64,000 bases of DNA, taken from a virus. Lineage: Duplodnaviria > Caudoviricetes. The DNA lies in IMG/VR virus record IMGVR_UViG_3300027740_000003, positions 128,001 through 192,000 of that record; one strand, 5' to 3'. The notes beneath the pieces are model-generated. The model had not been told where the DNA came from, searched no databases, and worked only from the letters and a program-made list of their open reading frames with translations. This document shows, piece after piece, positions 20,593 to 33,630 of the stretch. A program made the position numbers and the translations under genes. The number at the start of each line of letters is the position of its first letter. Position 1 is the first letter of the stretch.

Positions 20593-20687
20593 TTATTTCC
20601 TATCTGGGTGCGTATGGTACAAAATGATTCCCAACAACACTCCTGCTGTTAACATTATTATTACAAAAAAATGATGTTGGCATTTTG

Positions 20688-20760
20688 TGGCTCTGAGTGT
20701 AGTCGAAACACTGATCGGGTTTTTAGAGAACCCTGCTTTAGACCGCTAAGCTACAGAGCC
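20688..20760 (-). tRNA. tRNA with CUA anticodon (amber suppressor)
   Basis: GGCTCTG/CAGAGCC-A acceptor, GCTT/AAGC D-arm, GGGTT-CTCTAAA-AACCC anticodon arm, AGTGT-TTCGACT-ACACT T-arm; all stems perfect. Confidence 0.9.
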
Positions 20761-26920: not shown

Positions 26921-27157
26921 CTACTCTATTATGTCTTTTATTATTACTTCGGCACAACTCAAAATTTCATTTTTATAAATTCTCCCCCTAGAACAAAACT
27001 TGGGATAAAAATGAAAACTATCTCTTTTAAAATCAATTCTAATTTTTGAAACACATTTCGCACATTCGTACCAAACTACATTGTTGGTAAATCTGCCAAG
27101 CTCAACAAGTACATGATCTTGTGCAATATTGTTGGGAACAATATATTTTTTAATCAT
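26921..27157 (-). CDS. H-CxxC-C zinc-finger protein with IKDIIE tag (TAG stop)
   Basis: DHVL..YECAKC..LSCAEVIIKDIIE. Confidence 0.85.
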   Translation of the reverse strand: MIKKYIVPNNIAQDHVLVELGRFTNNVVWYECAKCVSKIRIDFKRDSFHFYPKFCSRGRIYKNEILSCAEVIIKDIIE

Positions 27158-27720
27158 CTGCTTGCTTTCAAAAACATTTCAGATAATTCAACAATGCTGT
27201 CAGAACTCTTCTTCTCAACACCAAGAGAGAATGGGAAATTAACAAATATCTCTGAATCTGCTTCGTCTCCACCAAATAATGCAATCTGGTTTATCATGAA
27301 CTTTGCCTTGGTTGGTAGCCTCAAATTCTTTTGCCTCTTCTTATTAAAAGATAATGTAATGTGAGGTTTGTACTCATCATGGTCATTACTGTATTCTACT
27401 TTGTTCTTATCAAGTAATTTGCGAATCTTTTCTCGAATCTCGAGAAGTTTCTCTGATTTAACTTCGGCAATAATTGGGTATTCCTTTTTATCCTCTCCTT
27501 TGGGAAAGGAGGTTATCTTTCCGACAGTAGCCTCAAATGGCCTAACGTCCTCAACCACTTTATGTATAATAGGAATTATATCTAATATAGTATCTAAAGA
27601 TATCTCATCTCCTAGATAGAATAAAGTAATGTGGTCAGAAGGGTCTCTGTGTCCATCTATATCAATTTCTCTAAAAAGACGGGACACATCAGGTGATATT
27701 GGAACTGCTATCATTGCCAT
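27154..27720 (-). CDS. 2H phosphoesterase (2'-5' RNA ligase/ThpR family)
   Basis: two HITL motifs; C-terminal IVELSEMFLKA. Confidence 0.9.
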   Translation of the reverse strand: MAMIAVPISPDVSRLFREIDIDGHRDPSDHITLFYLGDEISLDTILDIIPIIHKVVEDVRPFEATVGKITSFPKGEDKKEYPIIAEVKSEKLLEIREKIRKLLDKNKVEYSNDHDEYKPHITLSFNKKRQKNLRLPTKAKFMINQIALFGGDEADSEIFVNFPFSLGVEKKSSDSIVELSEMFLKASR

Positions 27721-29248: not shown

Positions 29249-29495
29249 CGGCCATAGTGGAATTCGAATCCACATTGAAGATACAAATTCTCGTTTTGGA
29301 AATGTGCTTCCCTAGCGACCCAGGATCTCTGTGCCATTCGGTGCATCAGCAACCATGAGAAAATTCACATTAGTAGAGGTCTATCCGAGCATCACCCTAT
29401 AAACATTTGCTAATGCTACTTTATCTTCCCTCTTTCGAGTATAGGTTCCGATTTACATTTTTACCTACGCATTGTCCTTTTTATGCTATATGGCC
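29249..29495 (-). ncRNA. tRNA-like RNA with ~170-nt structured insertion replacing the anticodon loop
   Basis: GGCCATA/TATGGCC-G acceptor, GCAT-AAAAAGGACA-ATGC D-arm, GTGGA-TTCGAAT-TCCAC T-arm, 247 nt total. Confidence 0.75.
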
Positions 29496-29796: not shown

Positions 29797-29825
29797 ACTA
29801 TAAACACTTCCGGCCCCTTTGTCAA
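29797..29825 (-). promoter_or_regulatory. sigma70-like promoter TTGACA-17-TATAGT
   Basis: near-consensus; reads into the tRNA cluster. Confidence 0.75.
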
Positions 29826-33237: not shown

Positions 33238-33630
33238 TTATGCACACAATATAAACCTTATAGGTTCTTTAACAATTTCCCAACTAAATATACATTTTAA
33301 ACTTTTATAGTCGTATTCTGTTTTATATGGGACAACAACCGCACCAATAAGAGAACCATATTGGTTTACATATTTACATTTTAAATTATTCATGGCATTA
33401 GTGATTTTGTTAAATTTTCTTTCTCTAATTTCACCTGGTGTCAAAGAAACTGTTTCGATTATTCTTTCCATATTATTCCTAAGAGGCCTGGGAGAGATTT
33501 GAACTCTCGACCCGGAACTTATCTTTGGATCTTCCAGACTTGAACTGGAAAGAGACGTGTATCTAGATCCCACAGGTTCCCGCTCTTCCTCTGAGCTACC
33601 AGGCCTTGTATTAAAAAAAATATCACTCAA
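33238..33630 (-). CDS. hypothetical protein ending RFILCA (FLVCA-type tag)
   Basis: 130-aa ORF; C-terminus TTT ATA TTG TGT GCA TAA. Confidence 0.7.
   Translation of the reverse strand: MSDIFFNTRPGSSEEEREPVGSRYTSLSSSSLEDPKISSGSRVQISPRPLRNNMERIIETVSLTPGEIRERKFNKITNAMNNLKCKYVNQYGSLIGAVVVPYKTEYDYKSLKCIFSWEIVKEPIRFILCA

What the first reader, a model, noticed from the sequence alone, without database searches (positions are those of the whole stretch)
29249..29495. tRNA scaffold carrying a ~170-nt structured domain in place of the anticodon loop
Seen: perfect acceptor (GGCCATA/TATGGCC, G73), D-arm with GG, T-arm (GTGGA-TTCGAAT-TCCAC) and a 4-bp anticodon-like stem (TAGGT/ATCTT), enclosing ~170 nt. 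The insert has long-range helices (GCATTAGCAA/TTGCTGATGC 10 bp; AATGTG/CACATT; TTCTC/GAGAA; CTC-GAAA-GAG). I could not find group I P7/R/S motifs or a BHB, and no anticodon reconstitutes cleanly. A short frame ATAAAGTA-GCA TTA GCA AAT GTT TAT AGG GTG ATG CTC GGA TAG resembles a tmRNA resume context, but G3:U70 is absent and a D-stem is present. Inference: a novel intron, mini-tmRNA, or tRNA-scaffolded ncRNA.
Basis: partly seen in the sequence, partly recalled or inferred. Interest (0 to 1): 0.7.

Follow-up and report, generated by a model that had tools for sequence, protein, structure and literature searches.

The report
tRNA-framed RNA with invariant core
This 247-base gene in a giant soil phage's tRNA cluster is not a split tRNA or a mini-tmRNA; it belongs to a conserved, apparently undescribed family of tRNA-shaped RNAs that cannot read codons, carry a nearly invariant folded core, and occur in phage tRNA arrays and in some bacterial chromosomes.

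Summary
The tRNA frame is real. On the minus strand of 29249-29495 there is a perfect 7-bp acceptor stem, a D-arm with GG and a T-arm, inside the tRNA array of a 435-kb phage.

The proposed anticodon stem TAGGT/ATCTT is not supported. Compensatory changes show TAGGT pairs with ACCTA as a local hairpin, and ATCTTC pairs with GAAGAT to close a ~150-nt domain next to the T-arm. No anticodon loop can be rebuilt.

ARAGORN and Rfam 15 (group I introns, tmRNA, all ribozymes) find nothing. The genome has its own ordinary tmRNA.

A 95%-identical copy sits in a related phage whose neighbouring protein is only 63% identical. A core pattern then recovered relatives in 8 viral loci and 8 bacterial MAG contigs. 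All are 198-247 nt and have the same frame, and 19 could be delimited full-length.

The shared core is a four-way junction, GGUUGC.GA.GCACCGAAUGGCA...GGUCGCUAGGGAAGC. Covariation is strong: 96.5% of cells pair and 28 pairs change on both sides.

The family is single-copy in 9 of 32 Sandaracinaceae genomes. Related contigs occur in two metatranscriptomes. No Rfam family or paper found describes it, and the scan noted one member before (e1-984664).

Most likely it is an unspliced, non-decoding RNA whose tRNA frame serves processing. Its partner is unknown.

The parts
29489..29495 (-). acceptor stem, 5' strand (GGCCAUA, p1-7)
   Evidence: Pairs 7/7 with 29250-29256. All 19 delimited family members have a fully paired 7-bp acceptor, with 2-5 pair types at six of the seven positions (C4:G69 is invariant).
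29469..29486 (-). D-arm (GCAU-AAAAAGGACA-AUGC, p10-27), preceded by U8 A9
   Evidence: In the groundwater variant the D-stem covaries to GUCU/AGGC. A D-arm with GG was found automatically in 17 of 19 relatives.
29442..29467 (-). hp1: local hairpin in the anticodon-arm position (UAGGU / 16-nt loop AAAAAUGUAAAUCGGA / ACCUA, p29-54). The loop starts with the family motif AAAA(C/U)G.
   Evidence: Relatives have a 3-5-bp stem with 9-16-nt loops that hold AAAACG or AAAAUG. The loop is 8 nt shorter in the groundwater variant. No anticodon-loop signature is present.
29430..29439 (-). hp2: small hairpin CUC-GAAA-GAG (p57-66)
   Evidence: Relatives carry CC-GUAAAA-GG or CC-GUAAGA-GG at the same place.
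29422..29428 (-). P-a, 5' strand (GAAGAUA, p68-74); closes the large domain
   Evidence: Pairs with 29277-29283. In the groundwater variant the helix becomes GAUUGUA/UACAAUC, three double changes. In the family, all 7 pairs change on both sides (helix 1).
29367..29416 (-). P-b: variable-length hairpin domain (outer helix p80-86/123-129; inner helices p92-97/112-117 and p99-102/106-109)
   Evidence: L123 shows three compatible one-sided changes. The groundwater variant shows three double changes at 81/128, 82/127 and 85/124. Helices 2 and 3 covary in the family.
29357..29361 (-). P-e, 5' strand (UUCUC, p135-139); closes the four-way junction
   Evidence: Pairs with GAGAA at 29288-29292. The groundwater variant has AACCU/GGGUU, three double changes. 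Helix 4 covaries in the family, but its exact register is uncertain.
29298..29354 (-). Near-invariant core: H1 GGUUGC-UGAU-GCACC (p142-156), GAAU, H2 (p161-179), GCUA, H3 GGGAA-GCACA-UUUCC (p184-198)
   Evidence: Most columns are invariant across 16 sequences. The distal H2 pairs 165/175 and 166/174 each show four pair types. The same stretch recurs in seven further metagenome and metatranscriptome contigs.
29288..29292 (-). P-e, 3' strand (GAGAA, p204-208)
   Evidence: See P-e 5' strand.
29277..29283 (-). P-a, 3' strand (UAUCUUC, p213-219), followed by a 3-nt linker AAU
Evidence: See P-a 5' strand.
29257..29273 (-). T-arm (GUGGA-UUCGAAU-UCCAC, p223-239)
   Evidence: The T-loop is UUCGANN in all 19 relatives and the stem covaries.
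29249..29256 (-). acceptor stem, 3' strand (UAUGGCC) plus discriminator G; no encoded CCA
   Evidence: The discriminator is A in L123 and always a purine in the family. CCA is encoded in L222 and L226 only.

Best explanation
The element is a complete gene for a non-decoding, tRNA-framed structured RNA, and it belongs to a conserved family of 198-247-nt RNAs.

Shown:
- The two ends form a genuine tRNA 'top half' plus D-arm: a 7-bp acceptor, a T-arm with loop UUCGANN, and a D-loop with GG.
- Between the D-arm and the T-arm sit two small hairpins (hp1, whose loop begins AAAACG or AAAAUG, and hp2 with an A-rich loop).
- They are followed by a 7-bp helix, P-a, which closes a large domain.
- That domain holds a variable hairpin (P-b) and a four-way junction (P-e, H1, H2, H3) whose sequence is almost invariant from AT-rich phages to 70%-GC myxobacteria.

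Inferred:
- The gene is transcribed with the neighbouring tRNAs.
- The tRNA frame makes it a substrate for RNase P and the 3' tRNA-processing and CCA-adding enzymes (the phage encodes two CCA-adding-type nucleotidyltransferase homologues), and gives it the stable L-shape.
- It is not spliced and cannot decode.
- The invariant four-way junction is the working part. It probably docks a partner that is conserved across bacterial phyla, most plausibly a component of the tRNA or translation machinery. Phages would carry it in their tRNA arrays for the same reason they carry tRNAs and tmRNA.
- The partner itself is not identified.
For: Frame and position.

No known class fits. ARAGORN finds nothing with introns up to 300 nt and lowered thresholds. 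Rfam 15 gives nothing at gathering score or at E<=10 for the element. The same holds for GC-rich relatives.

Selection acts on the whole unit. L123 and L124 hold a 95%-identical copy (E 8e-68) that has moved relative to its neighbours, and the adjacent protein is only 63% identical.

A diverged groundwater variant gives double compensatory changes in P-a (3), P-b (3), P-e (3) and the D-stem (1).

The family was found as follows. The pattern GGTTGCNNNNGCACCGAATGGCA hit 8 IMG/VR loci and 13 GTDB contigs. The covariance model R1 matches 16 of them, all 8 viral loci and 8 MAG contigs, at E 2e-6 to 6e-18. Every one that is not truncated is framed by a perfect 7-bp acceptor plus T-arm.

Covariation on 19 sequences:
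- 96.5% of cells pair, against 72% in shuffles and 42-50% when partners are slid.
- 28 pairs change on both sides.
- The covariation score is 0.438, against 0.12 in shuffles and 0.035-0.09 when slid.

Context and distribution:
- The viral-contig members and some MAG-contig members sit inside dense tRNA arrays.
- Bacterial copies are single. They occur in 9 of 32 Sandaracinaceae genomes, 8 of 121 genomes of the order and 1 of 151 in the phylum sample.

Expression of relatives: contigs from two metatranscriptome studies (X11, X16) carry the core with homologous flanks.
Against: - Nothing shows that this phage's copy is transcribed, processed or stable. The RNA-library contigs belong to relatives and could be carried-over DNA.
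- No partner is identified. No protein gene is consistently linked: neighbours are tRNAs, small ORFs, or housekeeping genes in Sandaracinaceae.
- The family alignment used for the covariation count was fitted to the model's structure, which inflates pairing.
- The P-e register differs between the RNAalifold model and the groundwater variant.
- H1, proximal H2 and H3 never vary, so their pairing is not proven.
- The patchy distribution in bacteria could mean a mobile origin rather than a cellular function.
Confidence: 0.6

Rival explanations
1. It is a tRNA gene interrupted by a new kind of intron, self-splicing or removed by proteins, and splicing yields a normal decoding tRNA.
For: - It sits in a tRNA array with an intact acceptor, D-arm and T-arm.
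- Another tRNA in the same array carries a 50-nt insert.
- The phage encodes RNA-ligase-family proteins and a 2H phosphoesterase.
- Lak megaphage tRNAs have unexplained introns (PMC6784885).
Against: - No combination of splice sites gives a 7-nt loop with U33 (by inspection).
- The strand needed for an anticodon stem (ATCTTC) is held in the covarying helix P-a, and TAGGT in hp1.
- The same holds in all 19 relatives, whose hp1 loops are 9-16 nt and contain AAAACG or AAAAUG.
- The group I model lists the element not even at E<=10.
- There is no U.G pair at a candidate 5' splice site.
- RtcB and the tRNA-splicing endonuclease are absent from the phage.
- No insert-free version of the same tRNA was seen in any relative.
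Confidence: 0.1
2. It is a tmRNA-like or otherwise aminoacylated RNA that enters the ribosome. The first reader's version had it resuming translation on the short frame ALANVYRVMLG.
For: - The acceptor/T-arm minihelix and purine discriminator are kept in all members.
- CCA is encoded in two members.
- One member (L226) has G3.U70 with A73.
- Phages with tRNA arrays also carry tmRNA.
Against: - Position 3:70 is C-G in the window copy and in most members. Acceptor sequences differ widely, so no single identity set exists.
- A full D-stem is present.
- ARAGORN calls no tmRNA here, yet finds a normal one at G000:C1:97812-98149.
- The frame lies in helix P-b. Its substitutions in L123 and in the groundwater variant are compensated by changes downstream of its stop codon.
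- P-b is variable in length and sequence across the family, so the frame is not conserved.
Confidence: 0.08
3. It is a dead tRNA gene disrupted by a chance insertion or a mobile-element remnant, with no function.
For: It is undetectable by tRNA finders. The phage array contains several aberrant tRNA-like genes (earlier notes).
Against: - The copy is 95% identical where the adjacent protein is 63% identical.
- Compensatory changes occur throughout.
- The core is invariant across phages and bacteria with GC content from 0.42 to 0.72.
Confidence: 0.02

Closest known systems
Bacteriophage T4 stable RNAs species 1 and 2 (rnaC, rnaD; NC_000866 70908-71171)
   Same: They are small stable RNAs of unknown function encoded inside a phage tRNA cluster. 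rnaC ends in a tRNA-type T-arm and an acceptor-like stem. They are probably matured by the tRNA-processing enzymes.
   Different: I saw no sequence or structural similarity to the domain here. rnaC is 139 nt, lacks the four-way-junction core, and was not recovered by any search.
tmRNA (SsrA)
   Same: Both have a tRNA-like acceptor/T-arm frame whose anticodon region is replaced by a large structured domain. Both occur in bacteria and in large phages.
   Different: Here there is no G3.U70 in most members, a complete D-stem, no conserved reading frame, no pseudoknot ring, and about 200-250 nt rather than about 360. ARAGORN and Rfam do not match it. The genome has a real tmRNA.
Class II tRNAs (Leu, Ser, Tyr, Sec) with a long variable arm
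   Same: Extra helices emerge between the anticodon-arm position and the T-arm, and the discriminator is a purine.
   Different: Here two extra helices emerge, one carrying about 150 nt. The hairpin in the anticodon-arm position has a 9-16-nt loop without U33 or an anticodon. Rfam tRNA and tRNA-Sec models do not match.
Group I introns in bacterial tRNA anticodon loops (tRNA-Leu UAA, tRNA-fMet, tRNA-Ile)
   Same: Both are a structured RNA of about 200 nt inside a tRNA gene.
   Different: Here the domain is not in an anticodon loop. There is no P1 with U.G, no P3/P7 pseudoknot order, no match to RF00028, and no exon ligation product that is a tRNA.
YrlA / bacterial Y RNAs (RF02553; PMC4201824)
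   Same: Both are non-decoding RNAs that combine a tRNA-mimicking module with another functional module.
   Different: In YrlA the tRNA-like part is internal and the ends form the Ro-binding stem. Here the ends form the acceptor. The phage has no Ro60/TROVE gene, and Rfam gives no match.

Membership tests
Canonical tRNA (Rfam RF00005) | 7-bp acceptor stem, D-arm with G18G19, T-arm with UUCRANY loop | tested here: met
Canonical tRNA (Rfam RF00005) | 5-bp anticodon stem closing a 7-nt loop with U33 and an anticodon, directly or after removal of an insert | tested here: not met
   ARAGORN with introns 0-300 nt and thresholds down to 80% finds nothing here. RF00005 does not match. Every splice register gives AAUUUGU-type loops without U33. 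The needed strands are held in hp1 and P-a.
Group I intron (Rfam RF00028) | Match to the covariance model (P3-P9 core with P7 G-binding site) | tested here: not met
   At E<=10 the whole genome gives two weak hits elsewhere and none at the element.
Group I intron (Rfam RF00028) | P1 with a U.G pair at the 5' splice site, and exon ligation restoring a tRNA | tested here: not met
   The hp1 stem is UAGGU/ACCUA here and mostly CCGG/CCGG in relatives, with no conserved U.G. No tRNA is restorable.
tmRNA | G3.U70 alanine identity in the acceptor stem | tested here: not met
   C3-G70 in the window copy. G.U at position 3 occurs in only 1 of 19 relatives.
tmRNA | Conserved resume codon and tag reading frame; detection by ARAGORN or Rfam | tested here: not met
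   The proposed frame lies in the variable helix P-b and is not conserved.
Archaeal-type bulge-helix-bulge (BHB) tRNA intron | BHB motif at the exon-intron borders and a splicing endonuclease plus RtcB-type ligase | tested here: not met
   By inspection, no 3-nt/4-bp/3-nt motif lies around P-a or hp1. PF01974 and PF01139 are absent from the phage. Host enzymes could not be examined.
Class II tRNA | A single variable arm of 3-7 bp plus a normal anticodon arm | tested here: not met
   Two helices emerge in that region, one closing a ~150-nt domain, and the anticodon arm is abnormal.
YrlA / Y RNA | Ro60-binding terminal stem and a linked Ro60 (TROVE) gene | tested here: not met
   No Rfam match. 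No TROVE gene in the phage. The topology is inverted.
The tRNA-framed four-way-junction family defined here (model R2) | tRNA frame + hp1 (AAAAYG loop) + hp2 + P-a + P-e + core GGUUGC.GA.GCACCGAAUGGCA...GGUCGCUAGGRAAGC | tested here: met
   The window copy has every element. It was one of the two founder sequences of model R1, so its own score is circular. The independent support is that R1 finds 16 other loci.

The most novel reading that the evidence does not exclude
The family is a new class of translation-linked tRNA-shaped RNA, comparable in rank to tmRNA. It would be matured and CCA-tailed like a tRNA, and perhaps aminoacylated. Its invariant four-way junction would be delivered to a universal partner such as the ribosome, EF-Tu, RNase P or a tRNA-targeting nuclease. 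Phages would carry it in their tRNA arrays to steer host translation or to blunt tRNA-directed defences.
Probability: 0.2. Interest if true: 0.9.

Novelty: new variant of a known kind. Interest (0 to 1): 0.68.

Why it matters
Large phages carry tRNA arrays whose role in infection and counter-defence is under active study. The odd genes inside those arrays are invisible to tRNA finders and are usually left unannotated.

This work turns one such oddity into a defined RNA family with:
- a covariance model;
- a covariation-backed secondary structure;
- a core that stays invariant across a GC range of 0.42 to 0.72;
- a distribution spanning soil, groundwater, landfill and wastewater phages and the chromosomes of one family of myxobacteria.

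That degree of sequence constraint is typical of RNAs that contact a universal cellular machine. Because some carriers are bacterial genomes with the gene on a multi-megabase contig, the function may be testable by ordinary genetics, if a cultured strain carries the gene, rather than only in uncultured phages.

Tried and rejected
- Sequence searches with no result. BLASTN (distant mode) of the element against 50,697 phage records found nothing. nhmmer and model R1 found nothing in 120 IMG/VR loci sharing the same T-arm, in 80 huge-phage loci around homologues of the neighbouring 2H phosphoesterase, or in whole records of five related huge phages. Model R2 also found none there.
- Exact-pattern scans that were too strict. 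GTGGATTCGAATTCCACTATGGCC, GATGCTCGGATAGACC, TAGCGACCCAGGANNNNNNTGCCATTCGG and TGCTCGGATAGACCTCTAC gave nothing in IMG/VR. The metagenome scan returned only the already known L124 contig. The first genome contigs pattern gave nothing.
- Neighbour-protein look-ups. These gave syntenic contigs without the element, except L123 and L124.
- ENA or JGI records could not be searched whole.
No similarity was seen.
- Linked proteins. Ro60 and RtcB were not found in the phage. Neighbours of the Sandaracinaceae copies are unrelated to each other.
- Literature. Five full-text searches found no description of such an RNA. The L-array paper PMC8421152 does not mention it.
- Stop-codon recoding. An open-frame count did not discriminate between codes.
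- Read laying. No joints (skipped parts) were seen, but all runs were contigs, so nothing can be said about splicing.
- The single-sequence fold z-score is weak (-1.55). The structure rests on comparison, not on thermodynamics.

Full report
**Where it is**

The window is bases 128001-192000 of a 435,004-bp virus record that CheckV rates complete. The region 28-34 kb is a minus-strand tRNA array interspersed with small ORFs. I number the RNA so that position p = 29496 minus the window coordinate.

**The observation**

Read on the minus strand, 29249-29495 begins 3 nt after tRNA-Val and ends 11 nt before tRNA-His. It has:
- acceptor GGCCAUA/UAUGGCC, 7 of 7 pairs;
- U8-A9, then D-arm GCAU-AAAAAGGACA-AUGC;
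- T-arm GUGGA-UUCGAAU-UCCAC and discriminator G.

A simple scanner for 'T-arm + 7-bp acceptor + D-arm at any spacing up to 700 nt' finds it in the whole genome. Beside it, the scanner finds the ordinary tRNAs, the tmRNA and one 121-nt interrupted tRNA. So the tRNA frame is real.

ARAGORN does not call the element, even with introns of 0-300 nt and the threshold lowered to 80%. Rfam 15 gives nothing at gathering score or at E<=10. The group I intron model gives two weak hits elsewhere in the genome at E<=10 and none here. The genome has a normal tmRNA at 97812-98149.

**Close relatives and the true fold**

The neighbouring 193-aa protein has a 63%-identical homologue on two JGI metagenome contigs, L123 and L124. 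These contigs carry a 247-nt copy of the element that is 95% identical (nhmmer E 8e-68). It lies on the other side of the tRNA-His and protein gene. The unit is therefore conserved as a whole and much more strongly than its surroundings.

Five of the twelve substitutions inside the element fall in predicted helices and keep pairing.

I then laid public contigs on the locus. A groundwater metagenome holds the L123 type, and it also holds a variant differing at 25 positions over p40-202 whose flanks are still homologous. Reading its differences against the window sequence gives:
- P-a: GAAGAUA/UAUCUUC becomes GAUUGUA/UACAAUC, three double changes.
- P-b outer helix: 81/128 C-G to U-A, 82/127 A-U to U-A, 85/124 A-U to U-A.
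- P-e: UUCUC/GAGAA becomes AACCU/GGGUU, three double changes.
- D-stem: GCAU/AUGC becomes GUCU/AGGC.

ATCTT(C) pairs with GAAGAT(A). TAGGT pairs with ACCTA in a local hairpin. There is no anticodon stem that encloses the insert.

The 10-bp GCATTAGCAA/TTGCTGATGC and the AATGTG/CACATT helices compete with supported helices and are not kept in the wider family.

**A wider family**

In the same laying, p142-190 also matched four further DNA contigs with different flanks. It matched three contigs from two metatranscriptome studies as well (sludge and wastewater). Their visible flanks are homologous to the window's P-e and P-a strands, and in two cases they run into a T-arm.

Several exact patterns taken from the element failed. 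A pattern from the most constant part, GGTTGCNNNNGCACCGAATGGCA, hit 8 IMG/VR loci and 13 GTDB contigs. A covariance model built only from the window and L123 copies of the domain (R1) matches 16 of these loci at E 2e-6 to 6e-18. The other five pattern hits are not members.

Each member that is not truncated is framed by a perfect 7-bp acceptor stem and a T-arm. A D-arm with GG was found automatically in all but two. Total length is 198-247 nt.

Rfam finds only ordinary tRNAs in these loci, often dozens of them, and nothing for the element even at permissive thresholds.

**Consensus architecture**

In order along the RNA:
1. Acceptor stem, then two nucleotides (usually UA), then the D-arm, then one nucleotide.
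2. hp1: a 3-5-bp stem with a 9-16-nt loop that holds AAAACG or AAAAUG.
3. hp2: CC-GUAAAA-GG, or CUC-GAAA-GAG in the window copy.
4. P-a, 7 bp.
5. P-b, a hairpin of variable length.
6. P-e.
7. H1 GGUUGC-NGAN-GCACC, then GAAU.
8. H2 GGCA...GGUC with a covarying distal helix, then GCUA.
9. H3 GGGAA-GCGCG-UUUCC, then the return strands of P-e and P-a.
10. A 3-4-nt linker, the T-arm, and the acceptor 3' strand.

Covariation on the 19-sequence alignment made with R1:
- 96.5% of cells form standard pairs, against 72% in column shuffles and 42-50% when partners are slid by 1-3 columns.
- 28 of 48 pairs show changes on both sides.
- The covariation score is 0.438, against 0.12 in shuffles and 0.035-0.09 when slid.
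- All seven P-a pairs and seven of eight P-e pairs change on both sides.
- The distal H2 pairs 165/175 and 166/174 each show four pair types.

Caveats:
- The alignment is fitted to the model's structure.
- H1, proximal H2 and H3 never vary, so they are conserved in sequence but not proven as helices.
- The P-e register preferred by the groundwater variant (p135-139/204-208) differs by two positions from the one in the model.

The acceptor stem shows two to five pair types at six of its seven positions. C4:G69 is invariant. The discriminator is always a purine. Only one member has G3.U70, and CCA is encoded in two.

**Distribution**

Members occur on IMG/VR contigs of 10 to 424 kb and on contigs of MAGs labelled Sandaracinaceae, Polyangiaceae, Deltaproteobacteria and Clostridia.

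Within bacteria:
- There is one copy per genome.
- It is present in 9 of 32 Sandaracinaceae genomes, two of them on multi-megabase contigs.
- It is present in 8 of 121 genomes of the order.
- It is present only in the query genome among 151 sampled from the phylum (stricter filters).

In some Sandaracinaceae the gene stands alone next to housekeeping genes such as phosphoglycerate mutase and an ABC1 kinase. In others it ends a short tRNA array.

It was not found in 1.6 Mb of tRNA-rich regions from 80 other huge phages, nor in 0.8 Mb of other phage tRNA loci. The family is therefore broad but sparse.

An earlier first-stage note of this scan (e1-984664) describes a 217-nt frame with acceptor UCCCGCG/CGCGGGA in another genome. 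That matches the L236-type member, so the scan has met this family once before, without follow-up.

**What it is not**

- An anticodon-loop intron. No tRNA can be restored in any member. There is no group I signature. RtcB and the splicing endonuclease are absent from the phage, although RNA-ligase-family genes and a 2H phosphoesterase exist.
- A tmRNA (see the membership table).
- A Y RNA. The phage has no Ro60 gene, and the topology is inverted.
- A pseudogene, given the conservation.

**What it most likely does**

Shown: a conserved, structured, tRNA-framed RNA gene without decoding capacity.

Inferred:
- It is co-transcribed with the flanking tRNAs. An 11-of-12 sigma-70-like promoter match lies at 29825-29797 on the minus strand, but promoter-like sites are no more frequent here than in shuffled sequence.
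- It is matured by RNase P and the 3' tRNA-processing enzymes, and CCA-tailed. The phage encodes two PolyA_pol/CCA-type nucleotidyltransferase homologues.
- The frame provides processing, stability and the tRNA elbow.
- The invariant four-way junction is the functional module. Its sequence constancy across very different genomes points to a partner shared by distant bacteria, most plausibly in the tRNA or translation apparatus.

I put 0.6 on this reading. The family membership and the fold are much more certain than the mode of action.

A tentative tertiary contact is worth testing. The start of the hp1 loop can pair with the loop and 3' side of H3: AAACG with CGUUU in most members, AAAUG with CAUUU in the window lineage, and AACUG with CGGUU in L223. 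This overlaps the H3 stem and is not established.

**Novelty**

No Rfam 15 family matches, and five full-text searches found no paper describing it.

The general kind is known: tRNA-shaped non-decoding RNAs such as tmRNA, YrlA and the T4 species 1 and 2 RNAs. Other agents of this scan have noted several unrelated insert-bearing tRNA-shaped phage RNAs.

I therefore class this as a new variant of a known kind. It is distinguished by its invariant core and by its presence in both phages and bacterial chromosomes.

Noticed in passing
window 33483-33605 (-): A second aberrant tRNA in the array. ARAGORN reads tRNA-His(GTG) with a 50-nt insert, and the insert contains a T-arm-like hairpin (CCAG-UUCAAGU-CUGG).
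   Followed up: partly
G000:C1:97812-98149 (-), outside the window: A canonical tmRNA with tag ANDNADLTAAAA is encoded by the same phage.
   Followed up: no
window 27154-27720 (-): A 188-aa 2H/LigT-like phosphoesterase. It also matches the Acb1 profile, just under Pfam's cut-off (26.3 vs 27 bits). It lies 1.5 kb from the element. Homologues sit in more than 100 IMG/VR contigs, many from 200-600-kb phages.
   Followed up: partly
window 29797-29825 (-): TTGACA-17-TATAGT, an 11/12 match to the sigma-70 consensus. It lies upstream of the 72-aa ORF, tRNA-Val, the element and tRNA-His. It may be the promoter of this block.
   Followed up: no
window 29343-29416 (-), p80-153: In the window lineage, strand p80-86 can pair either with p123-129 or with p147-153 (the H1 loop and 3' strand). 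In the diverged groundwater variant both partners changed so that both pairings stay perfect. In L123 the second pairing is weakened. This could be a conformational switch or chance. It is not a family-wide feature.
   Followed up: partly
window 29449-29462 (-), hp1 loop: The 16-nt hp1 loop contains a near-duplication, GUAAAAAU next to GUAAAUCG. The groundwater variant appears to lack 8 nt here, which would give an 8-nt loop.
   Followed up: no
window 29340-29354 (-), H1: The invariant H1 stem, GGUUGC/GCACC with a bulged U, resembles what I recall of the upper stem of the E. coli fdhF SECIS hairpin. The loop differs (NGAN here). This rests on memory only and was not tested.
   Followed up: no
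L152:18076-18298 (+) and L181:1876-2175 (+): Two other huge-phage loci hold tRNA frames (7-bp acceptor, D-arm, T-arm) spanning 223 and 300 nt. Models R1 and R2 do not match them, so they are probably different insert-bearing tRNA-shaped RNAs.
   Followed up: no
L236:7685-7766 (-): The Clostridia-MAG tRNA array that holds a family member also has an Rfam tRNA-Sec hit just above threshold (49.5 bits against a cut-off of 47).
   Followed up: no
window 20687-20760 (-): A tRNA with anticodon CUA, i.e. an amber suppressor (ARAGORN labels it Pyl), lies in the same genome.
   Followed up: no
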